NCBI GenBank assembly: GCA_964187785.1
Contig: OZ076409.1
Coordinates: 4,776,001-4,840,000 of the forward strand
Direction of reading: 5' to 3'
DNA from: Amphiscolops sp. MND2022
Lineage: Eukaryota
Length of the DNA stretch: 64,000 nucleotides
The notes under the pieces are model-generated. The model worked only from the letters and a program-made list of their open reading frames with translations, searched no databases and was not told where the DNA came from. The position numbers were made by a program, and so were the translations under genes. Shown one piece after another: positions 14,422-55,658 of the stretch (the stretch's first letter is position 1; each line of letters starts with the position of its first letter).

Positions 14422-14717
14422 GACGCGTAAGGTCCACTTTTTGTTCATTTGTCCAACAACTCTGAAACACTCGAACCTCAGAAACGCGTCCAAAACGAAA
14501 AGAAAAAACTAAAAAGACGTCCAGAACCTCGAAAACACACTAATGATCCCATTCCGCACTTTTTTCGGCACTATGCGACTTTTTTTTGAAACTTTTTGGA
14601 TTGCATCAAGGGGTCCCCCTTCATTTGTTTCGATATTTTGCAACACCCTTTTACATTTGTCGGCACTGTGACACTGTTCAAAAATCTCATTAAAAAATTT
14701 TCCCCAAAGGGTCCCCC
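14422..14717 (+). repeat. Left copy of the 296-bp target duplication flanking the Ty3/gypsy element
   Basis: Matches 20591-20885 with 1 substitution and 1 T indel. Confidence 0.95.
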
Positions 14718-17700
14718 TGTTATACGGTTGATCCGATTGACCCCTATTGAGTCCCAACTACAAACTACCACCCAATTCTCTAGCATACCTAAGAATTGTA
14801 TACAAACAAACTCTAAATAGATTACTCTACTCTATACTCATTTTTGGATACGATTTTGAGATAGAACATACGATAAAAAGATTGGGAATAAACACATTAC
14901 TTTTATTTGTTTTCTCATATATCTTACATCAACCTTAGAATAGAACATGGCGCAGTCAGCCGATTTTTAAATTGAACAAACCCTTTTAAAACGGAAAACA
15001 ATGGCCGATAGAAATATCGTCCCAAACCTAGAAACAAAAGCCACAGACGGAAACCCGGTATTTACACCGAGACAATGGCTTGAAAGGTTCCGGCAGTTTT
15101 GTAAACGGGAACACAAAATTGACATTAACCCAATAATGAAAGGAGGAGATATTACGGATGCCGATTGGAACGGAAAAGAACAAGCCGTACAAGAAGATTT
15201 TATATGGGGAGTGGGACCGGAAGCATTATATCAAATAACTAGGGCCGAATATAAAACGGAACCCGACAGCATAAAAGTGAAAGACCTAATCCGGTTATTC
15301 ACCGAATTCTATATGCCGAAAAGAAACACTTACCACAACCGCGGACATTTCTTCTGGGCGAAGCAGACTGAAGATGAGACACCGGAAGAATTCTGGAGAC
15401 GGCTAATCGAAATCGAAAAGGAATGTAACTTCAATGCAATATCAGCCGAAGAACTGTTGATATCAAAATATATGACAGCGATCACCGATAAAAAATTACG
15501 GGACAAAATAATGAAAGAAAAAACGTTGGAACTAAAGAAAGTAATCGAACTGATAAAACAAAACACGTACGAGAAAAAGAATAAAAAGAATACAATACCG
15601 GAAGCTTTGATATCAACAAAAGAAAAACACATAATTAAAGAAGAACCGATCCAAAGAATGGAAAGATTCGGAACAAGACCGAAAAATAAAAACTTCGGGA
15701 ACCGAACATGCAGATTTTGTAATGCTTAAAACTGGACACCAATGCATAAATGCCCCGCATTAGAAGCCAACTGCAACAAATGCGGAAAGAAAGGACATTA
15801 CGCAAAAGTATGCAGACAGAAATTCAACAACAACCGAACGGTGAAAAGACTAACCGAAGAAGAAACAAACGAACCGAACGAATCAACAAGCGACTCAGAC
15901 GTAAGCATTCACCACATAAAAGAAATCAAGAAGATAAACGAAATGAACAAACACTTTACGGCAACAGTACAAATCAACGGAGTAAAGAAGGAATTCATAA
16001 TCGATACCGGATCACCCGTTACAATAATGCCCTCCGACGAAAGAATCATGAAAGCTACCGAAATTCAGAAAATAACAAATAGATACCAAGATGTGAACAA
16101 AAACGAAGTGAAATTCCGGGGAAAAATTCCGGTGAACATAGAATACGAAAACAACAAACAGCAAATGGAAATTTTAATTACCGAGAGAACAGATATAACA
16201 CCACTACTCGGAATGGACTGGATGAAGAAATTCAAACTAACAATCGGAAAAATACAATTGGCCGAGAACAACCAATCAGAACGCGAGAAAGTGTTCACAA
16301 AGTTCCCGGACCTATTTGAAAACAATGAAACAATAAAAGACACCGAAATAAAACTTCAATTGAAACCGGGACACCAACCGATAAAACAGAAAGCCAGACC
16401 GGTACCACTACATCTACAGAAAGATGTAGAACGAGAATTAGAGAGATTAATAAAATTCGGACACTTGGAAAAAGTAAACAATGTAGACGAAGATTGTTTT
16501 GTCTCTCCGGTGGTGATAACCGTAAAAAGTGATAAGTCGGTAAAAATAGCACTGGACTCACGGAAACTAAATGATAGTTGTATCAAGATGAGATCACATA
16601 TGCCGAACATGGAGGAATTACTAAACCAGATTTCGATTGAAATTACCCGTGACCGTACAGCACAGTTATTCATGTCAAAAATTGATTTGGACTACGCATA
16701 CGGACAAATGAAATTATCAGATGAAACCAGCCGACAGTGCGTATTCGCATTAACTGGAGGAAATTTCAGCGGATACTATCGATTTAAAAAGGGATTTTAC
16801 GGATTGGCCGATATCCCCACGATATTTCAAGAAAAGATTGACCGGACACTCGAATACTGTACACCGGCTTGGCTAGACGACATAATCGTGGTAACTCGCG
16901 GAAACAAACAGGACCACGAAGGAAAATTATTCGACATTTTGAATAAATTAGAGAAAGCCGGATATAGAGCGAGTAAAAGAAAGTCCGAATTCTTTTTGAA
17001 CCGAACAAAATGGCTGGGACACGAAATAGATGAGAACGGAATTAAACCGAACGAAGAAAAAATCGAAGCGATACAAAAATTAAATCCACCGAAAAACACA
17101 AAAGAATTAAAATCATTTCTCGGAGCAATACAATATATGGCGAAATTCCTACCGAAACTTTCGGAACGGATAGACCGACTGAGGAAACTTCTGAAAAAAA
17201 TGAACCATGGAATTGGGAAGAAGAAAAACAAAAAGACTTTGAAAAAATAAAACAAATGTTAACCGAAGGACCATGCCTGGCCCATTACGCGAAAGATAAA
17301 GACAATATAGTGACAACAGATGCAAGCACTACCGGTCTCGGAATAACACTTTGGCAAAAACAAGACGACGGAAACACGAAACCGATAGCATACGGTAGTA
17401 GATATTTGAATGAAACCGAAAAGAAATATTCAATCGGTGAATTGGAATTACTAGCGGTAGTATGGGGATTAGAGAAATTCCGATTTTATTTATACGGAAA
17501 GAAAGTATATCTATATACGGATCATCAAGCATTGGAACCACTGAATAAACGAAACCGGTGTAACAAACAATATAGCGCAAGATTAACACGGTGGTTAGAC
17601 CGATTAACACACTTCGACATTTCAATACAACATATCGCCGGCAGCAATTTGAAATTCACCGATTATCTCAGCAGAAATCCGGTAGGGGGAGCAGCACCGG

Positions 17701-20590
17701 AAGAAAATTACGAAGAAGAATACGTAATTAACATATTAACCGAGCACGCCAAATTAAACTTGGAACACGGAAGACTATTCGTCGACCAATCAAAACACGA
17801 TAAACGCAAAACCGAATTACGCAGTGACGCAACCGAAACAAAAGATGAGCGCAACGAAAACCAATCACAAACGAATAGAATATTCGAGAACATAAACAGC
17901 GTGAACAAAACCGAACTCAACAAACCATCTACATCCGGGCAGTCCGAAATTAGCACTTCAAAATCAAGTTACCATTCGTTACAGCAGAACACTGAGAAAA
18001 TGGATAGAGAAAACTTTTATCACTGGGGAGCCACCCGTGAAATCATGAACATTATCAGACGCCGCAACAACAGTCCGGAAACCAAAAGATTGATAGATCA
18101 ACGAAATGCACTATCCCGGCCAGGAACCTTGAGACGCCGGTATGATCATCAAACACAGCGGACAGTATTCGCACCCTCCCGTCCCAACAAAAGAAGCCGC
18201 GAAGAAATTGCAGAAATTGACGCGGAAATCATGAGACGCGCAAATAGACTGGGAGGAGGATACCAACCATTACAGGAAGAACCGGAAGATAATACGGAAG
18301 AGGGCGAAATTAACCAGGAACCAGAAGACACCGAGGAATACAGCGTACTGCTACGCGAAGATAACTTGCCAATAGTAGATCTAAGCAAGTACAACACTGA
18401 CGGGAAGGAGGCAAAATACATCCAGATCAACCACATCGTGGGGAAACTGACAGCTAACAAGAAGATCACGGAGGAGAACATCAAAAAAGCCGAATTCGAG
18501 TTCATGCTGGACTTGAAAACCCTCATCTCAAAGACCGCGACAGACCCTGAACTCACTCATGTACGGAATAGCATGAGACGCGAAGACCGTGAAATCACCC
18601 CGGATGGTTATAAACCGGTTTTCGACAAACTATCAATCAGATGGGGGCTGGTATTTGTGGACGATCAAATAGTGATACCAATTGATCTCCGAAGAAGACT
18701 TTTGGATATTCTCCACTTCGGCCACGCCGGAATGACAAAGATGGAAACCGAGGCCAAAATATTCTGGTGGCCGACAAAGAAGTCCGACATCGAAATGAAA
18801 GTTAAAGACTGCACTGCATGCCTTGCCTCAGGTAAAAATCTCAAATATCAATTACCGAGTAAACACTACGGAAAACTAGGAAAATTAACCGAACCGGGAC
18901 AAGAAATACAAATCGATTTCACCGGATAACTACACAATCAAAAAATACACGGAGACGTACAAATACTAATTGCGGTAGATAGATTCAGTAAATGGCCTAC
19001 CGTAAAAATTTGTAAAACTGCCGAAACAAAAGAAGTGATACAGTTTTTAACAAGTAATTTTAATTTATACGGAATACCGGAGAAAATTAAATCGGATAAA
19101 GGAGGCGCCTTTATCTCAAAAGAATACCGGCAATTTTGCAAAAACCGGAACATAGAAATCGAATATTGTACACCCCGGATACATACGGGAAATGGAGCGG
19201 TGGAACGAGCAATACAGACACTAAAAAATCTAGTGTTAACAAACATGGAAGACGGTAAAAACCTTACCGAAAGTGTAAACCGAGCACTCCGAGTAATGCG
19301 ATTTACCGTACACACCGGACTTAAGAAAACACCATTTGAATTACATCACGGAAGAAAGCCGAGAACCGAATTAACAAACATTGTTAAAGAAGGTAAAACC
19401 TTCCTATCTGATTGGTCAGAACTATCTATTTCAGCACCAATAAGACCGAAGATCCCCATCTACGTGGGTCGAGACGGAGAAGGCGAAATAACAAACCATA
19501 TCATTATGGCACGAAACAAAACGGAAGAGAAGAGACTAGCAGAGGGACCGAAATCACCGAAAAAGAAACATTCGGTTAGCTATCCTTTTAAATTTCGAGA
19601 AAAGAACCATAACAAAAAATCCCTAGAAGGAAAATTTCAAAAGAAAATACAAACCGCAATAAGCGGAACCGAAAACACCGTGAAAACGGATACCGGAAAA
19701 ACCATCAGCCGAAAATTTATTTCGGGCCCATTATTTCAGAATGAAAAAAAGACAAGACGAGAACCGGCACCAATGACAAGCGGTGAAATCTTACCGAAGA
19801 ATAGACACTGCCTCCGTGGACTAGACGGGAAGTATGGCCGCTGGGACGAAATCCTACGGGACATACAAAATGGAAAACTAAAAATAGTACAAAACAGAAA
19901 GATCGACAGCGAGACAGAAGACGAGGATGATGATGAGGACGAAGAAATGCCGGAGGAGACCGGAAACATCACATATGATACATCCGAGCGAAACGGAAGA
20001 TATGCTCCGATACAAACGAATCCGGAAGACGAAGCAATACAAATTCACACCGAGGATGAAATTTCTGGTGAGAATTTAGAACATAACATACGGCGTTCAA
20101 ACCGAAAAACAAATAAACCGAATAGATACGGTGGTTTATCATATACAGGAAACTTTTGGGGATAAACAGAAAATTAATTTTATGTTTTACAGGAAATCCC
20201 TGGAACAGAAGAAAAGAGACGCCACAACCGGAAGTGATCCAAAAGCCGGCAGACTTCCTACAACAGGATCTGGAGACGACACCAATCCGACCATCAACAT
20301 CGGCATCAAAGAACCCTTCCGACAATTAGAAGAGAACCAAAAAGAGGAGAGAGGGGGAAATGTTATACGGTTGATCCGATTGACCCCTATTGAGTCCCAA
20401 CTACAAACTACCACCCAATTGTCTAGCATACCTAAGAGTTGTATACAAACAAACTCTAAATAGATTACTCTACTCTATACTCATTTTTGGATACGATTTT
20501 GAGATAGAACATACGATAAAAAGATTGGGAATAAACACATTACTTTTATTTGTTTTCTCATATATCTTACATCAACCTTAGAATAGAACA
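14718..20590 (+). mobile_element. Full-length Ty3/gypsy LTR retrotransposon
   Basis: 230-bp LTRs 14718-14947 and 20361-20590 (TG...CA, 2 differences). PBS TGGCGCAGTC at 14948 (tRNA-Ser-like). PPT AAAGAGGAGAGAGGGGGAAA before 20361. Domain order gag-PR-RT-RH-INT. Confidence 0.97.
15001..20165 (+). pseudogene. gag-pol polyprotein, disrupted (TAA 15727-15729, frameshift in the A-run near 17195, TAA 18927-18929)
   Basis: Zn knuckle CNKCGKKGHYAKVC; protease IDTGS; RT IDLDYAYGQ...WLDD; RNase H TDAS...ELELLA...YTDH; integrase HHCC, IDF and SDKG...E. Confidence 0.93.
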
Positions 20591-20885
20591 GACGCATAAG
20601 GTCCACTTTTTGTTCATTTGTCCAACAACTCTGAAACACTCGAACCTCAGAAACGCGTCCAAAACGAAAAGAAAAAACTAAAAAGACGTCCAGAACCTCG
20701 AAAACACACTAATGATCCCATTCCGCACTTTTTTCGGCACTATGCGACTTTTTTTGAAACTTTTTGGATTGCATCAAGGGGTCCCCCTTCATTTGTTTCG
20801 ATATTTTGCAACACCCTTTTACATTTGTCGGCACTGTGACACTGTTCAAAAATCTCATTAAAAAATTTTCCCCAAAGGGTCCCCC
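20591..20885 (+). repeat. Right copy of the target duplication
   Basis: Begins immediately after the 3' LTR terminal CA. Confidence 0.95.
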
Positions 20886-35953: not shown

Positions 35954-36725
35954 GTAAGGCTCTCTCATTACGCTATTGGAAATTTTTTTTCTGAAAACAT
36001 GAAAAGATTTTTAGTACCGGTGCTTTTTTCTCCTGAAAAAGGTTGTAGCCGACTCTGTTTCAACATTCAATTAATTTCCGCTGGGTGATAGGGAGTAGAG
36101 CCGAACAGTAATGATGCCGTAAGATATCATAGCTTAGCAACGTTCTCGAATGTGATATTATGAATGGGTTGAATTACGTAACAATGAGCCACGAATGATG
36201 AAACTATTACGTAACGTTTACAAACAATCAGCGGAAACGAAAACTGATGAATTCAATTTCAGCTTAAGTACAATACGGTTATATCATTGAAGGCGAGGAA
36301 ATTTTAATGAAATTACTGTTTTTTTTGCGGAAAAATTGAAAGTTACATGGAAGTCGGGTCCCACTCAAGGCTCAAAAAATCGACTCGGAAAGTCTTTCAG
36401 TTTATTGAGGAAACTCTTTTTTAATCTCATTGTCCGAGGAGTATCCGAATGGACGATCTTTGAGACTTAAAAAAACGCTTTTCTACATCAGAAAACTTCA
36501 AAAAACCAATTTACTGGGAAGTTTGAAAACCTTCTTTTCCAAAAAAGTAGCCTTTTACTGATAAATCCAAAAGGGAACCTTTAGACTCGCAAATGGTTTT
36601 TTCCTGTGTGAAAACACCAAAAAACTCAAAAAAGAATGTTTTGGTGGAATCAGGAAAAAAGTCAAGAAATTTGGCGCAGAGCTGAAAAAATCTTTTGTAA
36701 CTTTTTAAATATGAAAAACTCTTTA

Positions 36726-36790
36726 GAGCTGTGCGGGGATCGAACGATCTCTTGTCAGCGAACAAGACACTCTAACCACTAGACCATTAA
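36726..36790 (-). repeat. tRNA-derived SINE-like head inside a degenerate HINE-like copy (about 36351-36920)
   Basis: Minus-strand A box TGGTCTAGTGG and B box GTTCGATCC; no proper cloverleaf. Confidence 0.45.
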
Positions 36791-37140
36791 CAAGCTTCGT
36801 CCAAGGACTTTCGTTCAAAGTTTAAAGAATTTGCAAAAAGTGTCTACTACAATGACAGTTGAAAAAAAAGATGCCACTACAAGAGTTTCACCTTTTTCAT
36901 CAAAAAGCGCCAACTAAAAATACAACAATAAGGGTCAGCCTCTAGAGTTTAAAAAAATCGCCGACGAAAAAGCTATTTTATTGTTCCATTTCTCAGACGC
37001 TAAGACATTCTGGAACTTTTTCCTTCCCATTCTAAGGAAAAAGAGCTGACATTCTCTTATAGGCAATTTTCTCCAGGACAAATTTTTGACTGCAAATTTT
37101 ACAATATGTCATTACTATCACAATTTTTAATTTTTTTCAG

Positions 37141-37356
37141 GCGAAACAAGACAAATATCCGAACAACCCTTTGGTACCCCATGCCAAGTTCGGTTTTCTG
37201 CTGCTCTTCGTGTTATTAGTCTGTATTGCCATCTTCGCAATCGTCAAATTCCGACTCAACAGGGTAGTCGGCATCTCATTTGCCGTAATGTACCTCGTCT
37301 TCATAGCTTACGCAATGATTCAGGAATTCGCCTGCGATGGCGGCTACGGTTGCTGA
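37141..37356 (+). CDS. SLC24A: SLC24/NCKX terminal exon (last two TM helices, stop)
   Basis: T-rich CAG acceptor at 37140; FRLNRVVG...YLVF motif; TGA at 37354-37356. Confidence 0.9.
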   Translation, partial: AKQDKYPNNPLVPHAKFGFLLLFVLLVCIAIFAIVKFRLNRVVGISFAVMYLVFIAYAMIQEFACDGGYGC

Positions 37357-39202
37357 AGCTCCGCACTCAAGAGGTCCAGGGTTCGAGACTGGGTCCGGCC
37401 CAATTTTTTTTTTAATCATTGGAAGGTTTTAAAATCGAGGCTGAGCCCGGTCAAAACAAATTTCACAAACAGAACAGCACTACTTACAACAGAATTCAAT
37501 TTTTTTGCATTATGTTTTTGCATTTGTAAATATTGTACATGTGTACCATAACTATTGATGTACAGAATGAAATTCAATACTTTGACTTATCTTAAACAAT
37601 TGTAACATTCATTATAATGAGTTTATAAACTCTTATTTTTGTCAACACATTTTCTTTTTTAAATTCGAGCATCATGTAAACTTGAAACTTTGAAGTAAAA
37701 TCGCAAAACTTGTCATAGTTTATTAAACCATCAAGTGATAAAAGTTGGAACAAAAAAAAACGTTTGAAAAATTTGCAACATGTTCGAAACACGGTTCGTC
37801 AAAAGTGAAGTCTTAAGCACTAGAATACAAATATTCTAAATTAAAATAGGCGAATGTTTTCCCACATGAAAAATTAGAAGACAATATATCTGACACAAAA
37901 AAACTCATAATTAGTACTTCATGTAACTGAAACTTTTCCGAAAAAATTGTAAATGAATCCTTTGGTTGATCTATGAGATCAGTTAACACAAAAGCAACTT
38001 TCATGCTACCGACCGATGTTCAATATTACCGAAAAATCACTGGAAACCACAGTCAAAGAAATATGAAGCATGTTTGATATGAACCCCTAGGTTAACAAAC
38101 AAAATTTTTGAAAAATTGGCAGACTTGTTTTTTTTGAAATTGGCGAAACATTGTTGATTCGTTCGATAGACACACGCAGAGATTCCAACCAGAACGAACA
38201 ACAGTTGAAATTCTGTTCTCGAAAAAAATTCTGGACCTTTGGACTATCAATTTTGTAAAAGAGCTGAAGTTACTCACAAACAGAAATCAGTTTGGTTTTG
38301 TCAATGTCTAAGGGTGAATAACCATTTTCAAGACGTCGCTGATAGGCTAATGTTAGAAACTCTAATCTCTCCTCATTACAATTTCGGCATTAGAATGGTC
38401 GGCTCTTTTCTGTTCCCCCCACCACCAAAATTTTTGGAAGTAAAATTCCTCAAAAACTTTAGACTAGCCTAATTAAATGTAAAACCTTATTTCATAATGG
38501 GAAGTTAACGTCTATTGAGATAGTTTTTTGCTTGAACAAAACATTGTTCACGCTTTTTGACTATAATTGTGTTCGTATTAATTGTTTATTGATGACTCAA
38601 AACAGGAAGCTGTTGATTTCTTCATCAAAAATGCGTGACTACATATTGAAAAAGGTGAACAAAGTATGTATCTGAATCCTACACTGTCACACTAAGAATA
38701 AATGTAAATTTGAAGCCTTCTGGTATGTATTCAAGTCTTTTTGCTATACGATTTTCACTAATTTTCGAAAAAAAATTGGTGGTGTCGGGGAAAACAGGAA
38801 AAAGCCGAATGGTCGACACCGCTTCCGTATAAAGCGAATAAGATTGCTGATCTACAGATAAAATTTATCACCCTAAAATTTAATAAAAACTACCAAGTAT
38901 TTCGGGTATAGTGGACAAAACTGAACGCCAATATCTAATTTTTCCAACGATTAAAAAAGGTTGATACTTGGTACATGGAAAACGATAAAGGGAAAAATTG
39001 TTCGAACTAGTTCGTAGGATGTTTAAAGGTGTTGTGCATTCGCAAACTTGCAATTATCTACATAAAATAAACTACAAATGCATTACAATCCTTCCTTCAG
39101 TTCGACAAATGTTGGTAACTTCTCTGTGTCTACAAGTGCATCCAATAACCTCAGAACAACTGAAGACCTCCGGCTAATCACTCGTACATCAAAAGACCTT
39201 TG

Positions 39203-39658
39203 GGTACCCCTTACTGAGTGTGGTCCCAAACTATTTCTTCTTACTAAGTGTGGTCCCTATTTTATAAGTGTGGTCCCTGCATAGTTTGTCGGAATTTTTA
39301 TATTACGTCGTCAGCTATGTTCACATACCTCTAGTGCCCTAAATGCAGGAACGACCTAAATGCAGGAACGAAGCGAAGCAGAGCGACGTGCCATATGGTC
39401 ATGCCTCAATGTTGCTACTTGGCGAAGGGAGCGAAGCGACCGAGCTATACAACAAATATGCTAACCTCTTCAAATCAAGTTCCATACATATTTGCTGTAA
39501 CAGCACTAAAAGCTAGTAAATTGAATTCTGCTGTTTTGAACTACATGTAATGTTTGTTTTACGTTGGCTATTCTAAATTTGCTAGGGACCACACTTAGTC
39601 AGGAGTTTTCAAGCCGGTTGCATATATGTTGTAGGGATCACACTTGGTCAGGAGTACC
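39203..39658. mobile_element. MITE, GGTAC-ended, 8-bp TSD GACCTTTG
   Basis: TSD at 39195-39202 and 39659-39666; TIRs with repeated AGTGTGGTCCC. Confidence 0.85.
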
Positions 39659-40150
39659 GACCTTTGTAGCCAATTAGGGAGTTCGTCAGTTGTATGACAG
39701 GTCATCCTGCAGGAACCAGGATGGCAAAGATACGACAAAAATTACGCTAAGTTGTGACTGTTGACAAGCAATAAGATTGATTGCAAAACTAGTTCGTTTC
39801 AAGAGATGCAAAAGCTTACTGGATTATTCTGTTCGCATAGTAAAATTGCAGAAAGCGTTCGATCGGGTTCGATTCCCGATATTACCGAAGTTTGATATTT
39901 CTAGTATACTCGTAAAATAGCAAAATTAACCAATGTCTTTTTGAAATAACCTTGAAAAAGGCCTTGCTAGTTCGTTCGAAAAATCGTTGTTTATTAATTC
40001 TCGTTAATTGGTGCTTATTTTATCTTCATTTAGCTGTCTGACATGTATTATTTTATTGTTTTGCTATTTATTCTTTGCCTCCAATCTTGTTGGAAATCAG
40101 AGCGAATTTGGCCACTAAAACTGAAAAATAATACATTATTGGTAGCTTTT

Positions 40151-40244
40151 CTTTCGACGCCCAAAAACGATCTATAGAAATCGAAACTCTATAGTTATCT
40201 TTAGTCACTATCGGCCAAACGTTTTCATACAAAACCTCTAGATA
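40151..40244 (+). repeat. Left copy of the 94-bp target duplication flanking the LARD
   Basis: Identical to 45330-45423. Confidence 0.95.
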
Positions 40245-40245
40245 T

Positions 40246-43200
40246 TGTAACGTCCAGCAAAAGACGTCACAAAAATTCGATGAAATGTGCGATAGCAAAA
40301 TTTCTAAATCAAGATGGCCGACCTGACAGGTACTGGAAATTGAAAAGGATGATGGAAAATAGTGCAAACGACACCCCCACCCAACCCGAGAGAGAACACA
40401 CCGTCACAGAAGTATCCCCGAAATCGCCGTGTTGTGCGATCTCCCTCGGAAGACGTCCCAGCTGCCAGCAGAACCCGAAGAATGGCCCAAGAGATGAAGA
40501 AACTCAGAAGTTCGCATATTTTGCGTGTGCCACCTAGTAGGTCCAAGACCAAGGCTCGCTGACACTGACGCCTGATGTTTTCTGAATCTATTGTACCATA
40601 TTTGCGGTTTTTGTAGGTGTTTGGTGATGTTTTACCCCTTATTTCACCCAGTTTAGACGTTATTCACTAATTGAATGTACTTTGGCTAAACCCCTGTTTT
40701 TGGACCTCGGAGGTATGTAGAAACACGCAGGAACATTAGGAATTGTTTTTACAGGCTTGTGGGACGTGTCCGGACTTTGAGAGAGCCGGCACGTCGCCTC
40801 GGAGCTCTAACTGAGGAGACTCCTTAGACGTATAGGAAAAGTCCCTTTTAGGAGACCATTTTGGGATTAAAAACTAATGTCTAGGTTGTAGTAAGACACT
40901 GGTCTCCTGTTCAAGCAATCTAGGCATTGTCCCACTTCTATGATGTACTCTGCTAGGTGGTTGACGTTACATCTAGAATAGTTTTTATGGCGCCCCACAA
41001 GGGACATTTTTCCATCTTTTCGCCATAATTGGAGTTTTTCCTGCTTTCCGGCCCTGCTAGGTCTAGATCTAGGAAAATTTGTTGGAGAGTCCTAGATTAT
41101 TTTTATTGCCTTAGTCAAGCCTGGTAGGCTTTCTACTAGCTGAATTCCTGCGTTTCCTGCGTATTTCCGAGGTCTGAAACCGAAAATCGACGATTTCAGA
41201 CAGTGTATCCCTTGTATTTTGATAACACCTGTTGAAAATGTTAATCCGGCCTATCCGGAACTGGTTTTAAAGGGTTTTGTAGCTCCGTTTCAGTAAACTA
41301 GCAATGTATGGGGACCGGGAGGACGAGTGCTGAAGGCCCCAATTAGCTGACGACAGTGTGTGAGCACCTCCGACATCACACCTCCAGTACCGCTGTAGTT
41401 GCCGTATACCCACGTCAATCGGGTTATATTGCTAATTCTTGCTAATAATCGGCCCAAAAAGCATATTCCCAGGCCTGTTCCCACTAAAATTAACTAAATT
41501 AACTGGGGAAAATACCCTGTGGGTGTTTGGACCAGTTGATTAAAAATTTGAGCGCGAAAACCTTGAAAACAACACCATATATAGCTCAAATACCGATTTT
41601 TGAGGTGTTGAAAGTTGAAATCTAGTGGAAAAGGATACGGCCAGTGGGAATACGAAAAAAACGTTCCATCGGACCTGCTAGGTCAGGAACAGAAAAATTT
41701 GCTGGGCTAAATTACTGAAACATCAAAAAAATTTAGCAATTTTTGTTTAAAAAACATCAATTTTGGCCTAAAAGAAAAAAAATTTGTGAGGGCGAAGCCT
41801 TGGGCATTTGTTCCCAAGTTTTAAGATCAGCCCAAAAACGTTGTTCCTGAGCTTGGTAGTACGAAACACTACTGTCAAGACAAATTTTAGCACCCCCCAA
41901 TAAAAATTGAAACTTTAACCCTTGATTTTCTTTTGTTATATATAGACCTGAGTAGAGGACCACGTAGACCTGAGCGTTATAAAAACCTAACTAATAATTG
42001 AAACAACCCCAGTCCCCTCAATAAAGTTGTCACACTTTCTAACACTACTATTAGAACCATTCGGAACGTCTGAGAACCGAGAAACAAAAAGTTCCTAGGG
42101 AAAATACGTATTTTCAGTACTGTCCCGAGAGTGTCAAAGGTGCAACTTGAAAGTTATTTTGAGAGACCTTATTTGGAACCTGCCAGGTTTCGCTCGCCTA
42201 TTTTCCGTTAGTATAGGGTATAACGTTGCAAACGCGGAAAACTGCGAGTAATTCCAACCAGTAGTTGCTGAAAAATAGTCGAAAACGCGTTGTTTTTGCG
42301 ACATTTTCGGAACACTGGAGTAGTGTCCCCAAGATAGGTCGAAATCTCTCCTGATAGGAGTAGCTCAAAACAGATTGCACCATCGTATAGATCATAAAAA
42401 GTTACGTTGGTGGTGTAATTGTCGTAGTGCTACCACTACTGGTGATTGAGAAATCTAAGCCGCAGTTTTGCTCAAAAATTGTACGAAACTGTCAAAAAAA
42501 AATCGAATTTTAGTTGAGCGTAGTGCAATACCTTCGGAGTATCCCAGCACTAAAATTCTTGCATTTTCGTACACACAGCACTAGATCCCGACGATTTGTG
42601 CATTTTGAGCAGCTTGCTACTGTCCAATTTGGAGAAATTGACATTTTTGTGAATTTTGGCCCCAGGAAGTGACTAATAGGGTACATCATAGTTTTGTCAA
42701 CTCGGATTGCGGAATATTGACCTGGGCACCCCGCTATTTTGTTTTTCTGTTACGTGGGCCTAATTCATGCTCGCATACAAAATTTCAGGTAGCTAGGAAG
42801 CCTAGAAGGCGAGTTTGACAGACTTTTGTAAATTTCACAACATAGTCGATTCTTCAAACAACATTCTGAAGCAACCCCAAGTCACGTATAATCAATTTTG
42901 GCGCAATCGGCGGTGATTTTCCCACGATTTGGTCACAATAGTATACCGTGTTAATTTTTCAGGTCGCTAGTAGCTCTAGAAGTGATTTTCACCTTCCCCA
43001 GGCGTGCATTTTGGCGTAGGAATTGCCGATTTTGAGAAATTTTGCGAAAAATTATACACTTTTCGTAGGTGTAGTTGCAAGTGAAGGTTTAAACGACCCT
43101 AGTTCTACACCAGACATTCATAGCACGTCCCATTGAAGTAATCAGAATGGAGCTAGCTCAACCCTAAAATCTTGGGTTTGTCAAAAAGCTGTCTACGAGA

Positions 43201-45329
43201 CATAGGAGTGCAAAACACAAAAATTGCATTTTCTCTCCCAACGGCCACCAGGGTCACCTAAGTGTGAACTGATAGGTGCATTCACGTTTGCCTCGACTGA
43301 GAAGTGACGCGAGAGAGCTAGAACGCAATTAGGAGTTCTCTAGGAGACGTGGATAGTGGACGCGGTGCGTCTCGAGACAGAAAATTGAGTAAATTTGAAA
43401 TTGTAAAGAACTGTATTTCCATTGATCGTGCTACGATCGTAAGGCAAGAAAGCACTTCAAACTCAGTGTTCATTGTCCTACTCATCCCCGAGGTCTACCC
43501 CTAGTCCCTAATAACATTTTTGTTTTTACTTGTGCTCTCCAGAAACAGGGCAGCATGAGTGACGAAACGACTTTTCAGACAATCTAACGTCTGTAGCCAA
43601 GCAGGCTTCTCAAAAAATCAATGTTCGTTGCTTGATTCATGCCTAAGGTGAACCTCGGTACTCGGTACCACAGTTGCATGAACCATATCGATGTGAAAAC
43701 ACCGGACAAGAGATTGGCCCGGGGAGCACCTGTACTCTGCCGAAAGGAATCAACACCAAGCATGATAAAACACCTGGAGTTTCGAAGCTCTGAGAACTGC
43801 TTGGCCTGCGGCCGTGCTTTTAGAACTCGAATGATTGCTCTGAAACTTGTTTTTGAAGCCAAAGACTGTTTTCATTGTTTTAATGATCCACTATACCTGA
43901 TTTTTTAACTTCCCTTGGTCATAGTCTATCATCGCTATCGACATAATCATCCTCTTGAGAAGCAGTTTATTTCCATCTTTTACATATACACTTGTGCCTA
44001 TATTACCTACACAACACCTTTATCTGAGCGTACACTGCTAACTCAATAGATTGAATGGGTCCTCGCTTTTGATGATATTTTTGAATTTTTGGGATCTATT
44101 TCTCTATTTGTGCTTTTTATTGTGCAGTTTCTGTTGGCCATAAACTACGACACTTTTGCAAGACCACAGCCATTACTTTTACTCTTCGCTTTTCTAGTGC
44201 TATCGTGCATTTTGTACAACCTAACCTATCAGGTGGGACCGAGATTGATGCCAATCCTGTTGTGATGAGTGCTTTTTATGCAGATGCAAAAAGGTGCTAG
44301 AAATTTTGAAATCTTGGTGCGAAATTAAAAGTTTGAAAATGTTTTGAATAAAAGGCTAAGTGTCTAAAGTTGCTAACGCTATTCCAGCGCTAGAACCCAT
44401 TGTTGGTGTGGAATCCAAGGAAATCTGCCAGGCTGGCAAAAACTCGTGTTTTTGGGCAATAACATGTTCTTGGGCAATGACTTCCATTTAGATTCCTGAA
44501 GTACCATGTCACAACTGCATCACTGGATCACTGGATGATGGCAACCAAGACGTGAACGTCCACTTTCGTTTGTCGAGGACGACAAACTACGGCCCGGGGA
44601 GGATGTAACGTCCAGCAAAAGACGTCACAAAAATTCGATGAAATGTGCGATAGTAAAATTTCTAAATCAAGATGGCCGACCTGACAGGTACTGGAAATTG
44701 AAAAGGATGATGGAAAATAGTGCAAACGACACCCCCACCCAACCCGAGAGAGAACACACCGTCACAGAAGTATCCCCGAAATCGCCGTGTTGTGCCATCT
44801 CCCTCGGAAGACGTCCCAGCTGCCAGCAGAACCCAAAGAATGGCCCAAGAGATGAAGAAACTCAGAAGTTCGCATATTTTGCGTGTGCCACCTAGTAGGT
44901 CCAAGACCAAGGCTCGCTGACACTGACGCCTGATGTTTTCTGAATCTATTGTACCATATTTGCGGTTTTTGTAGGTGTTTGGTGATGTTTTACCCCTTAT
45001 TTCACCCAGTTTAGACGTTATTCACTAATTGAATGTACTTTGGCTAAACCCCTGTTTTTGGACCTCGGAGGTATGTAGAAACACGCAGGAACATTAAGAA
45101 TTGTTTTTACAGGCTTGTGGGACGTGTCCGGACTTTGAGAGAGCCGGCACGTCGCCTCGGAGCTCTAACTGAGGAGACTCCTTAGACGTATAGGAAAAGT
45201 CTCTTTTAGGAGACCATTTTGGGATTAAAAACTAATGTCTAGGTTGTAGTAAGACACTGGTCTCCTGTTCAAGCAATCTAGGCATTGTCCCACTTCTATG
45301 ATGTACTCTGCTAGGTGGTTGACGTTACA
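40246..45329 (+). mobile_element. Non-autonomous LTR element (LARD-like), no gag/pol
   Basis: 726-bp LTRs 40246-40971 and 44604-45329 (TGTAACGTC...GACGTTACA, about 5 differences). tRNA-Lys-like PBS TGGCGCCCCACAAGGGAC at 40988-41005. PPT GGGGAGGA before 44604. Confidence 0.92.
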
Positions 45330-45423
45330 CTTTCGACGCCCAAAAACGATCTATAGAAATCGAAACTCTATAGTTATCTTTAGTCACTATCGGCCAAACG
45401 TTTTCATACAAAACCTCTAGATA
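45330..45423 (+). repeat. Right copy of the 94-bp target duplication
   Basis: Starts immediately after the terminal CA. Confidence 0.95.
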
Positions 45424-45477
45424 AACATTCTGGTTCACATGGATGGTTCTCCTGTTTTTTTCGATGAATCAGAATTG

Positions 45478-45806
45478 GGTACTCCTGACTAAGTGTGGTC
45501 CCAAGCTATTTCTCCTTACTTAGTGTGGTCCCTATATTATAAGTGTGGTCACTGCATAGTTTGTCGGAATTTTTATTGTTACGTCGTCAGCTATGTTCAC
45601 ATACTGCTAATGCCCTAAATGCAGGAGCGAAGCGAAGCGGAGCGACGTGCCATAAGGCCATGCCTCAATGTTGCTACTTGGCGAAGGGAGCGAAGCGACC
45701 GAGCCATACAACAAATATGCTAACTTCTTCTAGGGACCACACTTAGTCAGGAGTTTTCAGGCCGGCTGCATAAGTTTTGTAGGGACCACACTTAGTCAGG
45801 AGTACC
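45478..45806. mobile_element. MITE of the same family as 39203-39658, 8-bp TSD CAGAATTG
   Basis: Perfect TIR GGTACTCCTGACTAAGTGTGGTCCC; TSD at 45470-45477 and 45807-45814. Confidence 0.9.
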
Positions 45807-47783
45807 CAGAATTGTCCCAGAACTTGATCAAAAAGTAGCCCAACCCAGAACATGGCTTTCTGCTTGCCACTGTCCAGACTTTCCCCATGCTCAGAGAAGC
45901 TTAACACTCAACCATGTGCATGTGCGTGAGCTTTGTGACCTGCTATCCGGCTGGAGAACCCACCTGTTTTCATCCAAGAACATGACGGTCTCGCGCAAAT
46001 TGAGAGTCCTGGCTCAAGAGACCAGTATGAAATTGGCACCATATCATCTATTTCACCACCCAGGTACAACTTGTTGGGAATCCCCCCTCCCAACAACACG
46101 AAAGCACTTTTTGTTCTTGAATAAAAAATATTTCCCTGATAAGAGAATATTATATGAATGTATATACTTAGAGGATTGTCTCTACAACTGTTTGGACACT
46201 TCAGGTTAAAAAATTACCATAATTTTATGATATTATTGTCCAACATAGCAGAAATTCACGTTTGAAACAAACTAAAATCGTATAAATTGGTCCCTAATGT
46301 TTTGATATTATTGTCCAAAATAGCAGAAAATCACGCTTGGAACAAGCTAAAATTGTATAAATTGATTATGTCGACATCAATAATTTTATTGGATCAAAAT
46401 TTCAACGCAAACGACGTCGACATAATGGTATTTGAACCTTCTGTCTTAATTCCCCCCTTCCTGCCGCAGTTTGGGGGGAATAGATGACATGGTCCCGAAA
46501 TTGATCCCTGAATTCAAATTTTGGAGGATCAATGCAATACACTTTCGTAGTTTTTTATGGTTTGAAGTTTTTGGCATGGCTAAGCTCGCGTGGCCTTTTG
46601 ATGTGGTCGGGTTATTTTCAAAGAATGATGTGGTTCTCACTCGCATGATGAAAAGATTGCTTTGGTTTTCCAACCTTTAATGTGATGGGACAAAGTTCAG
46701 AAAACTGTTCAAACCCTTTGGAAATCCCGAGGTGGACCTTTTGTTGCTTGTCTCCCAGTTTTTTTGGCATGAAACGTCTGGCTAAAAATACTTCTGGCTA
46801 AAAAATCTTCACACTTGTAAGGGAGTGTCTTCTGCCGTTCCAAAGAATAAAAGTCTCAACTGTTTATCAGTAAAGTTTCAAGAGCGGTTTGAAAGTCTCT
46901 TTGATAAAGCAAAAGTAATAGTGTTCGGAGAATAAAGAAAACTGGAGATATTATCAAACAAGCATCCAGTGGAAGAGATTAATCTCATGTGGTAAAATTT
47001 ATGTATTTCTCCAACATGCACTTGAAGTTTCAAATTATTGATCCTTCTAGATATTCTTTCTGGAAGATTTCGTTTTGTCCACGAACATCCCGTACTTATG
47101 AGCTACAATCCTACTACTATGGAACTAATACGATTTGAAAAACAGCAGTTACGGAACTTATCAAAAAACAGAAAAAAAACTTGTTGAAAGTTGACACTGC
47201 TACGAAAACGGGAAGTCTTGAAATAAAAGTAATCGTTATGAAACGAAACAAACATGTCTAAATTTTCGCCTTTTGCACTGTTGAAATACTATCACCAAAG
47301 GCTGATTGTATTTTAATTTTCTTTGTTGTCGTGAAATTTTACGCGGAAAAAAACTTTTTTGTACCACAATCACAAACATCGGAAAAACTTGAGATTTGTG
47401 GAATGATTTAGTTTGTTCTCAATGTTATTCTTTCAGATTTGAGAAACCGACAAAAACTGCTTTATATATCTCTTTTTCTAATGAATCATGAATGTCCAAA
47501 CGTATAGACAGACAAAATGTACAGTCAAAAGAAGAGAACAAAAAAATAAAGGAACTAAGACGAAGCAAATAAAAAGCGAATGAAAACAAAGACACAAACG
47601 AAATAGAAATGAATGGCTCGGAGTGAGTCTCACCGGCTGTGGTCTGAATACTTCCTTCATTGCTAAAAGGGTGATTTCTCGCCACAAATTGTCAAACCAA
47701 GTCGGTCAATTCTGTTAATCTCCCGTCTAACAATCATTGTTCGATCCTAGTCGACAGGCAGTGTGTTCTAGTCACGTTCCTTA

Positions 47784-48467
47784 TAGTAGCGTTCTAAAAT
47801 ATCACAAATTAACATTGCCCAAAATTGCAAAATTCAAATCCAAATATCTTGAAAACTGTCACAAATACTAAAAATTGTCAGCTACGAAAGTTTCTTAGAA
47901 TTTTATCTAGCTTACAAAAATGTTTGTTTGAAATTTCTATGACGCTTACTGAGAACGTTAGAAAATGCAAATTTTAAGAAATTTTAATAGAAATTTGAGT
48001 TGTTTTTGGAAATTGAATAGCTTAGAATTAAAATTTTTGGATTGTTTTTTCATTCGGAGACTCCTTATAATCTCCCGAACCTACTGAATTGTTTTGGTCG
48101 AGAATTTTCTTCGAATCAGAAAAAATTAAAGTACATATATTAAGATAAGCTATAAGAATTGCATTTAGAAAATTGATGACTTTTATTTGAAATCGAAAAA
48201 TTTTCACCAAAAAGTTCCAAAATTATTTTTTAAACTTAGCGAAAATCAAGAAAAAATGCATATTTGATGAAATTTTGTCAAAATTTACAATTTCTAACTT
48301 TTGTATTTTTTTGCAGAAATTTCAAACAAGCATTTTTGTAAACTAGATAAAATTTTAAGAAACTTTCCTAGCTGGCAAATTTTTGTATTCGTGACAGTTC
48401 ACGAGATATTTGGTTTTGAATTTTGCCATTTTATGCAATGAGGTTGCGATATTTTAGAACGTTACTG
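47784..48467. mobile_element. Tc1/mariner-type MITE with long TIRs and TA TSD
   Basis: TAGTAGCGTTCTAAAATATC / GATATTTTAGAACGTTACTG flanked by TA; empty site in the duplicate near 51409. Confidence 0.85.
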
Positions 48468-49538
48468 TATTTCGTCGTAGGATGGTATGTTTTTTCACGT
48501 TCCCCCTGTTCATGTAACAGAATATTCGGGAAATGAAGATTAGCCATTTCGTACCAACTAAGATTGGCAATTGTTCTGAATTTATGAAAACTGTTATACA
48601 TGGGTTTAGGAATGAAAAGAACTAGGGTATGAAAAATTGATCAATTGATGTGGTTTAATGGTAGTTGATGTTGTGACAAAGAGGGCGTTGGGTTTTTGTA
48701 AATTTTTGTGGTCAATGAAGCATCATGCTATTTCAGTGTCTGGTTAAAGTTGGTGTACTGGTATTTTCTCAAATCCTGATTAGCACCATCTGCATCAAGT
48801 GCTAAACCGCAGTTATTAGACATTTTCAATCTATAGCGCAATCTAGCAGGTTACTGGTATTATTGCTTAAACGACGCTCTGGCATTCACAGCATCAACCC
48901 GTTATTTTCCGCCCACATATAATGGGGGAGGAAAATCATTATCTGTGTTGCGTTTTTTTCCAAATTCTGCCGAATGTCCGCGGTCTCCTTCAGCTTAGTT
49001 GACTATATTAAATACTTGACTAATTTAGTTACTGGTAATTAAGGCTGTTTGATTCATTAGTAATTACTACACTGGAAGAATAGCTCAACCGAATTAAGAT
49101 TAAATAGCCGAAGTTAGTTTAGATCGAAACGGCGGACGGTTGAAAAAGCTATTGGTTGAAATTGTGAGCGGTTGAAATGGCAACGGATGAAATTGCATAG
49201 GTTGAAAGTGTATAGGACGAAATGTCCTGAAACGAGTTTAGCGCATTTGACCTTTAGCAGGTTACTTTGAAACCGCAACTGCGAGCGTCTTTTGTTAGAC
49301 CATTCTGTTTTTTCAATACTGTACCAATTTGTACCAATTTATGCCTCCGATTTTTGACCTTTTCAGAATCACACTTTGAAACTAACCTTGCTCTTTCATC
49401 TTCGACAAGATGCTCAATCTTTTATCCAGTAAAAGTTTAGAACAGATCTAAAAACATGAAATTTGAGTTGCCAAATTACCTAACTTAAAAAATGTGACTT
49501 CAGAAAGAAACAAAAATTGTTTTTTCCTCTAAAAATTA

Positions 49539-49698
49539 TCATTGTGGGGAGTTTTTGCGGAATCGGGCAGAACAGGAAATTTTGAAAGATTTGGGTTGGT
49601 TGGATATGTCTTCATTTTCTGGGTTCTGGGAATTGAGGGAGGCCAGGAACTGTTGTTCTTCCTGTCTTTGAACGAGTCTGCACTGTGAATTGGTCCAT
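49539..49698 (-). pseudogene. Truncated duplicate of the Rab last exon (RLVQRQEEQQFLASLNSQNPENEDISNQPKSFKISCSARFRKNSPQ)
   Basis: Direct similarity to 56511-56669; lacks the acceptor; CC changed to CS. Confidence 0.85.
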
Positions 49699-50734
49699 AT
49701 TTTTTTCCAGTATTGTATTTGTACCACATTTAAAATACCCATATCTGCTGTCGCCCTAATTATGCGTTAGGGATTTAAACCAGGTTTATTATATAAAAGT
49801 TCGATGCTACTAGTTAATGTTGCTGTTGAAGTTAATCCAATCCGACGTCATTATTACGTTGAACCATATTTACTCTAATTTGGATACAATAATTATGTGT
49901 GCTAATCATTTTAATAAGGCTAAATTATCAAAAGATTGATCCATCTTATTCTCCTAGCATCTCTAAATATTCCCAGCAAGCGAGATTTGTTTTATTTTCT
50001 TCGAGTAAAAATTCAAAATCACTCCAGCGTCATCTCAGCGTCAATTTTTCTACGAACCAAAGCAGTAAAACAGGGAAACATTTCCGGTTTGACAGACTGA
50101 AGTAATATCTACTTCCTGCTTGGGAGGAAGCAAAAGGACGCCGGGATGAAATAATACACGCGCAAATTTCGGATCATAATGATTGTTTCATCGAAAAAAC
50201 AGGAAGTGACAAATTGTTCGAGAGAAATAGGGGATTTAGTCGTGATCAAATGATACTAGGAGGGTATAAATACGATGATATTCCATGGATAAGGGACTCA
50301 GTCTTTTGCATTCGTAAAACTCAGTTGCGCTATAATTCACTTATCTCAGCCTATTCCTTCATTTTTGTTTAAAATATATAGCAAAGACAAATTGAATTAT
50401 CCAAACAAAACTTTCTTCATTCAAAGTGTCGACTACAAGAAGCCAAAAGAGAAAGAACAATCAGCAGGAGAGCACCGAAAGTGTTAGTGAAGTTTCTGTT
50501 TCACCGATAATGGTAGAAAATTCTTGTCCATTAGACCAGGACGTAGCCGTTGCGGGACCTTCGAAGCCGAAATCCCCTAGGATCGAAAATAGCTTCTGGA
50601 AAAGTTTGAGGGCTTCTTTGAAAGAAGAAATCATATCTGAAATTAGGAATCTTCTCGTTGAATCTCAGAAAGAGATGAAGAAACTGCTACGATCAACTCT
50701 ACTCAAAACAACGACCTGTGTGGTAGTCGTAACA
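49699..50734 (+). mobile_element. LTR remnant ending ...AGTCGTAACA, containing a gag-like N-terminal ORF (50426 onward)
   Basis: TATAAA at 50265, Inr-like TCAGTC at 50298, ORF STTRSQKRK...SLRASLKEEIISEIRNLL, terminal CA at 50734. The left end is unclear. Confidence 0.55.
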
Positions 50735-52366
50735 CCTACTACTATGGAACTAATACGATTTGAAAAAGAGCAGTTACGGAACTTTTCAAAAAACAGAAAA
50801 ACTAAACTTGTTGAAAGTTGACACTGTTACGAGAACGGGAAGTCTTGAAATAGTAGTAATCGTTATGAAACGAAACAATCATGTCTAAATTTTCGCCTTT
50901 TGCACTGTTGAAATACTATCACCAAAGGCTGATTGTATTTTAATTTTCTTTGTTGTCGTGAAATTTTACGCGGAAAAAAACTTTTTTGTACCACAATCAC
51001 AAACATCGGAAAAACTTGAGATTTGTGGAATGATTTAGTTTGTTCTCAATGGTATTCTTTCAGATTTGAGAAACCGACAAAAACTGCTTTATATAACTCT
51101 TTTTCTAATGAATCATGAATGTTCAAACGTGTAGAAAGACAAAATGTACAGTCAAAAGAAGAGAACAAAAAAAATAAAGGAAGTAAGACGAAGCAAATAA
51201 AAAGCGAATGAAAACAAAGACACAAACGAAATAGAAATGAATGGCTCGGAGTGAGTCTCACCGGCTGTGGTCTGACTACTCCCTTCATTGCTAAAAGGGA
51301 GATTTCTGGCCACAAATTGTCAAACCAAGTCGGTCAATTCTGTTAATCTCCCGTCTAACAATCATTGTTCGATCCTAGTCGACATGTAGTGTGTTCTAGT
51401 CAGTTTCCTGATTTCGTCGTACGATGGTATGTTTTTTCACGTTTCCCCAGTTCATGTAACAGAATATTCGGGGAATGAAGATTAGCCATTTCGTACCAAC
51501 TAGGATTGGCAATCTTGGTTCTGAATTTATGAAAACTGTTACATGGGTTTAGGAATGAAAAGAACTAGGATATGAAAAATTGATGAATTGACGTGGTTTA
51601 ATGGTAGTTGATGTTGTGATAAAGAGGGCATTGGGTATTTGTAAAGGTTTGCAGTCAGCGAAGCATCTTCCTATTCCAGTGTCTGGTTAAAGTAGGTGTA
51701 CTGGTATTTTCTCAAATCCCCATTAGCACCATCTGCATCAAGTGCTTTCAATCTAAAGCGCTATCTAGCAATGGTTACTGATATGCTTGCTTGAAGGAGT
51801 CACCGTATCAACCTTGTTTATAATGATGATGTAATCATTCATCACTTTTTGAAGCCATGATGGGTACGGCGTAGTTTTGCAAATGGGATGTATCGAAATT
51901 TTGAAATACCCTGGATATAAAAACTACACTGTGTGCAAAAACTATTCAGTATCATGATATACTGAGAATTAGATGTTTTGCTTTGAATTTCAACTATAGC
52001 CTCAAGAAATGGCTTTTTCAAAAGTTGTGTTTGGGGCGTAACCAGTACCGAAGATCTGTCTAATCATGATTGTTAGCCCCTAAGCATATCATTCATCTAT
52101 AGCTTAGTTTAACGCATTTCACCTTTAACAAGTTACTTTTAAAACCACAGCTGCGAGCGTCTTTTGCTAGACCATTCGGATTTTCAAATACAGTGGTGAA
52201 AATAAAGATCGAATCTAGCTTAAACGTTTGTCAGCCCAATTGTTTCGTTGTTGTTTGTCATTCAGAAAAGTACTAATTAATATAAAACTTTGACAGCACA
52301 TTACGACGAAAGCGTTGCTACATGACTTCTACCGTAGTTTTGCTCGATCTTGTCCATTGGACAGAA

Positions 52367-52462
<96 letters not shown>
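52367..52462. repeat. (AAT)32 microsatellite = LINE 3' tail
   Basis: Perfect repeat about 70 bp beyond the ORF2 stop. Confidence 0.95.
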
Positions 52463-52463
<1 letters not shown>

Positions 52464-52533
52464 GGTTTTTCCCGAAGGAGGGGACAGGGTCCCAGAATTC
52501 CACAGGTTCTCCTTAAAGTTGTCCGGCTTTCGC

Positions 52534-55374: not shown

Positions 55375-55434
55375 GTGGATTATTCGTTTAATACGTTGAT
55401 CGCCGAGATACCTCGGTGAGATACCCGAATGTAG

Positions 55435-55629: not shown

Positions 55630-55658
55630 ATGATATCCGACAAATTTTTAACCAAACA

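What the first reader, a model, noticed from the sequence alone, without database searches (positions are those of the whole stretch)
40151..45423. Non-autonomous LTR element flanked by an identical 94-bp duplication
40151-40244 (plus one extra T) precedes the 5' LTR, and an identical copy at 45330-45423 follows the 3' LTR. The LTR ends are perfect 9-bp inverted repeats with a PPT, so the 94 bp lies outside the element. There is no short TSD. The family is unrelated to the element at 14718.
Basis: seen in the sequence. Interest (0 to 1): 0.75.

Follow-up and report, generated by a model that had tools for sequence, protein, structure and literature searches.

The report
LTR retroelement with oversized target duplication
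A non-coding jumping element sits between two identical 94-base copies of host DNA instead of the usual 4-6 bases, and an unrelated element nearby shows the same oddity, so such elements may often land sloppily in this organism, unless the genome assembly created the repeats.

Summary
The 94 bp is host target DNA, not element: its first half continues a dispersed host repeat, and 0 of 18 other copies whose 5' flank could be read carry it. In both, the flank copies are no more diverged than the LTRs. Best reading (0.62): a long TSD made at insertion, the two ends joined ~94 bp apart and host synthesis duplicating the gap. This is known for HERV-K (61-450 bp, about 1.3% of sites) and for aberrant HIV/ASLV integration. 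Main rival (0.22): false duplication by a long-read assembler; no reads, second assembly or whole genome were available to test it. If real and genome-wide, an organism where LTR elements routinely make long TSDs would be new. The scan's notes hold no LTR case, only one non-LTR analogue elsewhere.

The parts
40151..40244 (+). Left copy of the 94-bp duplicated host segment (long TSD); its first ~48 bp belong to a dispersed host repeat that runs in from upstream
   Evidence: 94/94; 39963-40198 vs 8788-9009, 76%
40245..40245 (+). Single extra T between duplication and 5' LTR: a junction insertion, or a substituted last base of a 95-bp duplication
   Evidence: not a family trait, since the base before the LTR varies in 18 other copies (hand count: 7 T, 6 A, 3 G, 2 C)
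40246..40971 (+). 5' LTR, 726 bp, TG...CA with 9-bp inverted ends
   Evidence: start supported by 18 other copies whose similarity to the LTR begins at this point
40988..41005 (+). PBS-like site starting TGG, 16 nt downstream of the 5' LTR (likeness to a tRNA-Lys-type site is recalled, not tested)
   Evidence: sequence; no tRNA gene in the window to compare with
40972..44603 (+). 3,632-bp internal region without a detectable gag/pol/env domain; multicopy in the collection
   Evidence: 12 proteins of one 90% cluster on contigs of 12 different lengths
44596..44603 (+). Polypurine tract abutting the 3' LTR
   Evidence: the same internal-to-LTR junction is seen in 10 of 68 protein clusters
44604..45329 (+). 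3' LTR, 726 bp, 5 substitutions against the 5' LTR
45330..45423 (+). Right copy of the 94-bp duplication, flush with the terminal CA, no microhomology
14422..14717 (+). Second case: left copy of a 296-bp duplication, flush with the 5' LTR of the unrelated Gypsy; part of an abundant dispersed host repeat
14718..20590 (+). Second case: Gypsy element (230-bp LTRs 14718-14947 and 20361-20590, 2 differences; protease, RT, RNase H, integrase in interrupted frames), in an intron of a Na/Ca exchanger gene
20591..20885 (+). Second case: right copy (295 bp; 1 substitution at a CpG and 1 homopolymer base against the left copy), flush with the terminal CA, 2-bp microhomology

Best explanation
A young copy of a multicopy, non-coding (LARD-like) LTR retrotransposon family, flanked by an unusually long target-site duplication made when it inserted. 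SHOWN: the LTR/PPT anatomy; the 94 bp is host DNA present once on each side; other copies have other flanks; the flank copies are no more diverged than the LTRs; a second, unrelated LTR element in the window has the same anatomy (296 bp). INFERRED: the element was copied by an autonomous partner's enzymes (partner not found). Its two cDNA ends were then joined to the target about 94 bp apart, not 4-6 bp apart in one concerted step, and host DNA synthesis copied the interval. Either integrase made two uncoupled strand transfers, or it joined one end and host polymerase plus recombination attached the other, as proposed for HIV and ASLV. The left end with its extra T is the likelier irregular end. 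Because two unrelated families show this, the cause is more likely on the host side or a general property of integration in this organism than a quirk of one integrase.
For: Exact flush anatomy. Host origin: the left flank and the first 48 bp of the duplication align to a paralogous host repeat. For the second element, both flanks align to one continuous paralog at 55672-56182 that holds the segment once. 0 of 18 readable 5' flanks of other copies resemble the segment (best 3 of 14 residues). Age match: 1 substitution in 390 duplicated bases against 7 in 956 LTR bases, Fisher p=0.45. Both junctions of both elements fall at the TG/CA termini (one offset by 1 nt), which a join made without regard to the element should rarely hit (inference). 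Precedent: HERV-K TSDs of 61, 96, 111, 206, 250 and 450 bp; the 96-bp case has 2 extra nt at a junction; empty sites were PCR-validated for two (PMC5488345). One-ended HIV integration gives host duplications hundreds to thousands of bp long (PMC5041404).
Against: No reads, empty allele or second assembly were seen, so the junctions rest on one contig. Two of two in 64 kb is far above the HERV-K rate (6 of 451 at 61 bp or more), which is also what a systematic assembly fault would give; false duplications are documented for long-read metagenome assemblers (10.1101/2025.04.22.649783). In the HIV work the aberrant end is often truncated and usually shows short homology; here no end is truncated and only one junction has 2 bp of microhomology. 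The flank test cannot see copies that do carry the 94 bp, because it has no in-frame start codon, and it says nothing on other copies' TSD lengths.
Confidence: 0.62

Rival explanations
1. Assembly artefact. The insertions are heterozygous with ordinary short TSDs, and the assembler or polisher joined the insertion haplotype to the empty haplotype, repeating 94 and 296 bp of left flank after the element.
For: Two window ORFs are each on record from one ENA contig of 336,698 bp only. Concatenated haplotypes and false direct repeats are reported for long-read metagenome assemblers (passages). 2 of 2 is suspiciously frequent. The window has another near-identical tandem duplication (22245-25958).
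Against: The right-hand joins fall exactly at the terminal CA in two unrelated elements, with no leftover short TSD. The 296-bp copies differ by a CpG transition, so they are not one read reported twice. If the 1.9% divergence of the 1.86-kb tandem duplication were allelic, 1 or fewer substitutions in 390 bp would have P=0.004 (this holds only under that assumption). Two MITEs in the window have ordinary short TSDs, though they are older and perhaps fixed, so this control is weak.
Confidence: 0.22
2. Pseudo-TSD by recombination. Two separate insertions of the same family, 94 bp apart on two alleles or in two copies of a recently duplicated segment, recombined through the element and left the interval on both sides.
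For: Proposed as an alternative for long HERV-K TSDs (PMC5488345). Gives precise LTR ends by construction. Both duplications lie at least partly in dispersed host repeats. LTR elements commonly recombine through LTRs (PMC5932611).
Against: It needs two independent same-family insertions within 94 bp, and again within 296 bp for another family. The 18 readable flanks show no shared target (one pair shared 5 of 12 residues). The longest in-window paralog of the 296-bp segment is only 67% identical, while its two copies are 99.3% identical, so unequal exchange between ordinary repeat copies does not fit.
Confidence: 0.1
3. The 94 bp is part of the mobile unit (an outer repeat carried with the element, or a captured flank integrated by homologous recombination of a circle).
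For: Would explain the missing short TSD and the perfect identity.
Against: 0 of 18 other readable 5' flanks carry it. It is continuous with a host repeat that starts further upstream. Neither junction resembles the PBS or PPT side of the element (8 of 34 and 6 of 24 matches), so Tf1-type annealing (PMC11042837) is not indicated.
Confidence: 0.03

Closest known systems
HERV-K (HML-2) insertions with long TSDs (PMC5488345; main text parts 1-3 of 4 read, supplements not opened)
   Same: LTR element with near-identical direct repeats of 61-450 bp abutting its ends; one 96-bp case has 2 extra nt at a junction; pseudo-TSD alternative discussed
   Different: There it is a rare event (6 of 451 at 61 bp or more) in an endogenous retrovirus of primates, with empty sites validated for two loci. 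Here it is a non-coding LTR retrotransposon plus an unrelated Gypsy, 2 of 2 in one window, with no empty site seen.
Aberrant one-ended integration of HIV-1 and ASLV (PMC5041404; passages and Discussion read)
   Same: One normal end, large duplication of adjacent host DNA, host polymerase and recombination invoked
   Different: Induced by drugs, integrase mutations or mutated ends; the aberrant end is often truncated and usually has short homology. Here both LTR ends are complete.
LARD (large retrotransposon derivative; PMC5718144, passages only; size and no-ORF definition recalled)
   Same: Multi-kb element with paired LTRs, PPT, PBS-like site and no detectable coding domain; multicopy
   Different: Described mainly in plants. 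A conserved internal RNA structure and the autonomous partner were not shown here, and the TSD is not canonical.
Canonical LTR-retrotransposon integration (PMC6911290, passages)
   Same: TG...CA termini, short inverted ends, PPT, PBS-like site
   Different: TSD of 4-6 bp there (87.2% 5 bp, 11.6% 4 bp, 1.2% 6 bp among plant elements filtered for having a TSD); 94 and 296 bp here

Membership tests
LTR retrotransposon (structural) | Paired direct LTRs with TG...CA and short inverted ends | tested here: met
LTR retrotransposon (structural) | PPT directly before the 3' LTR | tested here: met
   same junction in 10 of 68 clusters
LTR retrotransposon (structural) | PBS complementary to a host tRNA 3' end near the 5' LTR | tested here: inconclusive
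   TGG-starting site 16 nt downstream; no tRNA available to compare; the Lys-type likeness is recalled
LTR retrotransposon (structural) | Dispersed copies with different flanks and a common boundary | tested here: met
   18 distinct 5' flanks; 18 of 18 last flank residues can be encoded by a codon ending in the LTR's first T (background 0.80 per residue)
Canonical concerted integrase insertion | 4-6-bp TSD | tested here: not met
   both elements
LARD / non-autonomous LTR element | Several kb with no gag/pol coding capacity | tested here: met
   5,084 bp; 0 of 6 frames reach a Pfam cut-off, one hit at E=0.083; longest stop-free frame overlapping the internal region 118 aa; no similarity to the neighbouring Gypsy
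LARD / non-autonomous LTR element | Conserved internal sequence or RNA structure across copies; mobilised in trans by an autonomous partner | not testable with these tools
   No DNA of other copies could be fetched; only protein fragments show internal conservation
Long-TSD insertion (HERV-K type) | Near-identical long direct repeats abutting both LTR ends, made of host DNA | tested here: met
Long-TSD insertion (HERV-K type) | Empty allele with a single copy of the segment; junctions confirmed in reads or by PCR | not testable with these tools
   one search listed no run; only paralogous single-copy sites were seen
Tf1-type integrase-independent insertion (single-strand annealing) | Target homology to PBS or PPT, usually with truncation or insertion beside an existing copy | tested here: not met
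   (8 of 34, 6 of 24, 7 of 28, 5 of 24 matches); PMC11042837 passages

The most novel reading that the evidence does not exclude
In this organism LTR retrotransposons of unrelated families routinely insert with long, variable TSDs (about 100-300 bp) and intact ends. The stagger would be set by host chromatin or repair, or by uncoupled strand transfer, and not by integrase geometry. Each insertion would duplicate host DNA and leave a direct repeat through which the element could be removed cleanly.
Probability: 0.38. Interest if true: 0.78.

Novelty: new variant of a known kind. Interest (0 to 1): 0.5.

Why it matters
One long TSD is a known rarity. Two in two unrelated LTR families within 30 kb is not expected at the published HERV-K rate of about 1.3%. 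If this is real and general, it is a natural system in which LTR integration is often non-concerted, something otherwise seen mainly with drugs or mutants. It would make the host step of integration repair testable by a simple genome survey. It would also mean that LTR finders which demand a 4-6-bp TSD undercount young elements here, and that insertions can be reversed by recombination between the long repeats. If it is an artefact, it is a specific and recognisable failure of long-read assembly at heterozygous insertions, which matters for this scan.

Tried and rejected
Whole genome: none held. Sequencing runs: none was listed for 36500-46400; that is no evidence either way. DNA of other copies: 0 matches to a 20-base LTR-end pattern in metagenome contigs; no relative of the neighbouring integrase in viral, metagenome or genome contigs (43, 138 and 91 pattern matches, none confirmed). 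Independent support for junction-crossing ORFs: 2 of 10 window ORFs were on record, both non-junction controls on one contig; all 5 junction ORFs were absent, which is uninformative because gene callers skip most such frames. A decayed gene at 43636-44262 (2 stops in 209 codons, hydrophobic stretches): rejected as unproven, since 154 of 500 simulated sequences did as well, there was no Pfam family and no Atlas hit for its first 90 residues. Of its 13 database matches, 12 map back to this element and switch frames or stop early like copies of non-coding DNA; the 13th (P0151) gave no match to the window. A third LTR-plus-duplication at 47110-51798: the second copy starts after a TAACA, but no matching LTR start was found; not counted. 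LINE at about 52463-55650: no flanking duplication found (longest shared word 11 bases, off the boundary); its 5' end is unclear, so it is no clean control. Stable RNA structure at the U5/PBS junction: z=0.42. Rfam: 0 hits. Organism: not identified; no homologue carried a name. Literature: searches listed no paper whose title or abstract opening reports long TSDs as a regular feature of Gypsy or non-autonomous LTR retrotransposons. Most listed papers were not opened and the library lacks most subscription journals, so this does not show absence. Scan notes: nothing by place, sequence or two further word searches.
Full report
1. Observation. 40151-40244 and 45330-45423 match over 94 bases and no further; a single T at 40245 separates the left copy from the 5' LTR; the LTRs (40246-40971, 44604-45329) are 726 bp with 5 substitutions, end in 9-bp inverted repeats and have a purine tract before the 3' copy. 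There is no 4-6-bp TSD, 16-mers of the segment occur at these two places only, and 0 of 20 shuffles of the window contained a repeated 24-mer. The element shares nothing detectable with the Gypsy at 14718.

2. Setting. The window is eukaryotic and repeat-rich, probably animal (inference): an intron-containing Na/Ca exchanger gene at about 9289-37353, a Gypsy, an endonuclease-RT LINE, a DDE transposase and MITEs. The organism was not identified. Two window ORFs are on record from one ENA contig of 336,698 bp; that this is a long-read assembly is my inference from contig sizes.

3. The element. It is 5,084 bp with a 3,632-bp interior. None of 6 frames reached a Pfam cut-off (one hit at E=0.083) and Rfam gave 0 hits in the window. 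A stop-poor stretch at 43636-44262 is not beyond chance (154 of 500 simulations). The family is multicopy: one 90% cluster from the interior has 12 members on contigs of 12 different lengths, and an LTR-derived frame found 68 clusters among 70 candidates. A TGG-starting PBS-like site lies 16 nt after the 5' LTR; its tRNA was not tested. Structurally it is LARD-like; no partner was found.

4. The 94 bp is target DNA. The left flank and the first 48 bp of the segment align at 76% to another copy of a host repeat at 8788-9009. No DNA of other element copies could be fetched, so I used spurious ORFs that gene callers made across the LTR start. Of the 68 clusters, 40 do not cross the junction, 10 run in from the element's own interior (3' LTRs), and 18 run in from foreign sequence. 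All 18 differ from each other (one pair shares 5 of 12 residues) and from this locus (best 3 of 14). All 18 end in a residue that a codon ending in the LTR's first T can encode (background 0.80 each), which supports the boundary. The base before the LTR is mixed (hand count: 7 T, 6 A, 3 G, 2 C), so the extra T is not a family feature. One copy lies inside a gag-like frame related to the neighbouring Gypsy (P0231). Limit: the 94 bp has no in-frame start codon, so copies carrying it would be invisible. The test refutes 'travels with all copies', not 'with some', and gives no TSD lengths.

5. A second case. The unrelated Gypsy at 14718-20590 (LTRs 230 bp, 2 differences; protease, RT, RNase H and integrase domains in interrupted frames) is flanked flush by 14422-14717 and 20591-20885, 296 and 295 bp, differing by one CpG transition and one homopolymer base. 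Both flanks align to one continuous paralog of a host repeat at 55672-56182 that holds the segment once. So both paired-LTR elements found by the window's self-comparison have long flush duplications. Substitutions in the duplications (1 in 390) and in the LTRs (7 in 956) do not differ significantly (Fisher p=0.45), as expected if the duplications date from insertion; the numbers are small. Two MITEs have ordinary short TSDs; the LINE shows no long duplication but its 5' end is unclear.

6. Mechanism. Best supported (0.62): a long TSD made at insertion. The two ends were joined about 94 bp apart and host synthesis copied the interval. The anatomy and host origin are shown; the joining steps are inferred. 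PMC5041404 (passages and Discussion) reports that when integrase inserts only one end, the host attaches the other, commonly duplicating hundreds to thousands of bp; that end is often truncated and usually has short homology. Here no end is truncated; the 94-bp case has an extra base on the left and no microhomology, the 296-bp case has 2 bp of microhomology on the right. Two uncoupled strand transfers would explain intact ends more simply, but that is my inference, and the two variants cannot be told apart from two loci. PBS- or PPT-directed annealing as in Tf1 (PMC11042837, passages) is not indicated.

7. Rivals. Assembly artefact (0.22): long-read metagenome assemblers are reported to concatenate haplotypes and invent direct repeats (10.1101/2025.04.22.649783, passages), and 2 of 2 is suspicious. 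Against it, the joins sit on the LTR termini in both elements with no leftover short TSD, and the 296-bp copies are not identical. It cannot be excluded without reads (one search listed none). Pseudo-TSD by recombination between two nearby insertions (0.10; proposed in PMC5488345) needs paired insertions twice over, and the longest in-window paralog of the host segment is only 67% identical. Carriage with the element (0.03) is contradicted by the 18 flanks.

8. Comparison with what is known. PMC5488345 (main text parts 1-3 of 4; supplements not opened and may hold further cases) lists 8 HERV-K duplications over 10 bp among 451 putative TSDs, 6 of them 61-450 bp. One of 96 bp has 2 extra nt at a junction, and empty sites were validated for the 111- and 250-bp cases. 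A review calls these special cases (PMC10742618, passages). Plant LTR elements filtered for a TSD have 4-6 bp (PMC6911290, passages). So the single locus is a new instance of a known rarity, in a non-coding LTR retrotransposon. What differs is the apparent frequency and the intact ends. My searches (mostly listings only) showed no report of long TSDs as a regular trait of LTR retrotransposons, which does not prove there is none. The scan's notes held only a non-LTR analogue in another genome (e1-7510870; not checked).

9. Verdict. Real in the assembly, most likely a long TSD, and probably systematic in this contig for either a biological or a technical reason. Interest 0.5. The most novel reading, routine long TSDs across LTR families in this organism, has probability about 0.38 and would deserve about 0.78. 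A read pile-up at two junctions and a genome-wide flank survey would settle it.

Noticed in passing
window 14422-20885: Unrelated Gypsy element flanked flush by a 296-bp duplication; taken into the main argument
   Followed up: yes
window 22245-25958: Head-to-tail duplication of 1,857 bp (36 substitutions, 3-bp junction overlap), each unit holding a ~1.5-kb element with 41-bp inverted ends and a DDE_3 transposase frame plus flanks; a real tandem duplication or two haplotypes side by side
   Followed up: partly
window 47110-51798: Older ~1.1-kb duplication (96% and 86%) with a TA-flanked MITE (47782-48469) in the first copy only; the second copy starts right after a TAACA at 50730-50734, but no LTR start was found
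   Followed up: partly
window 43500-44300: Pyrimidine tract and CAG followed by an ATG and a stop-poor, hydrophobic frame, in the position where an env-like spliced ORF would lie; not beyond chance in simulation, though some other copies read through stops seen here
   Followed up: yes
window 40972-41005: The PBS-like site is 16 nt from the 5' LTR, whereas the Gypsy at 14718 has its TGG directly at the LTR end; a long spacer could leave an unusual right-hand cDNA end (speculation)
   Followed up: partly
window 45476-45808 and 39200-39658: Two copies of a MITE-like family with 27-bp inverted ends lie on either side of the element; the right one has a short TSD of about 6-7 bp
   Followed up: partly
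window 52367-55650: LINE on the minus strand with an open 966-aa endonuclease-RT frame, next to an (AAT)32 run; no TSD found
   Followed up: partly
window 9289-37353: Na/Ca exchanger gene with at least 7 matched exon blocks; the Gypsy and the tandem transposon lie in one intron, and the finding lies about 2.8 kb past the last coding block
   Followed up: partly
window 4174-4845: 223-aa frame without a Pfam family that belongs to a 22-member cluster on many contigs, so probably part of another mobile family
   Followed up: no
window 12005-12566: Tandem array of 3.4 units of 163 bp in an intron
   Followed up: no
proteins P0231 and P0155: Other copies of the element: one LTR inserted in a gag-like frame related to the neighbouring Gypsy; one internally deleted copy joined to the abundant host repeat
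   Followed up: no
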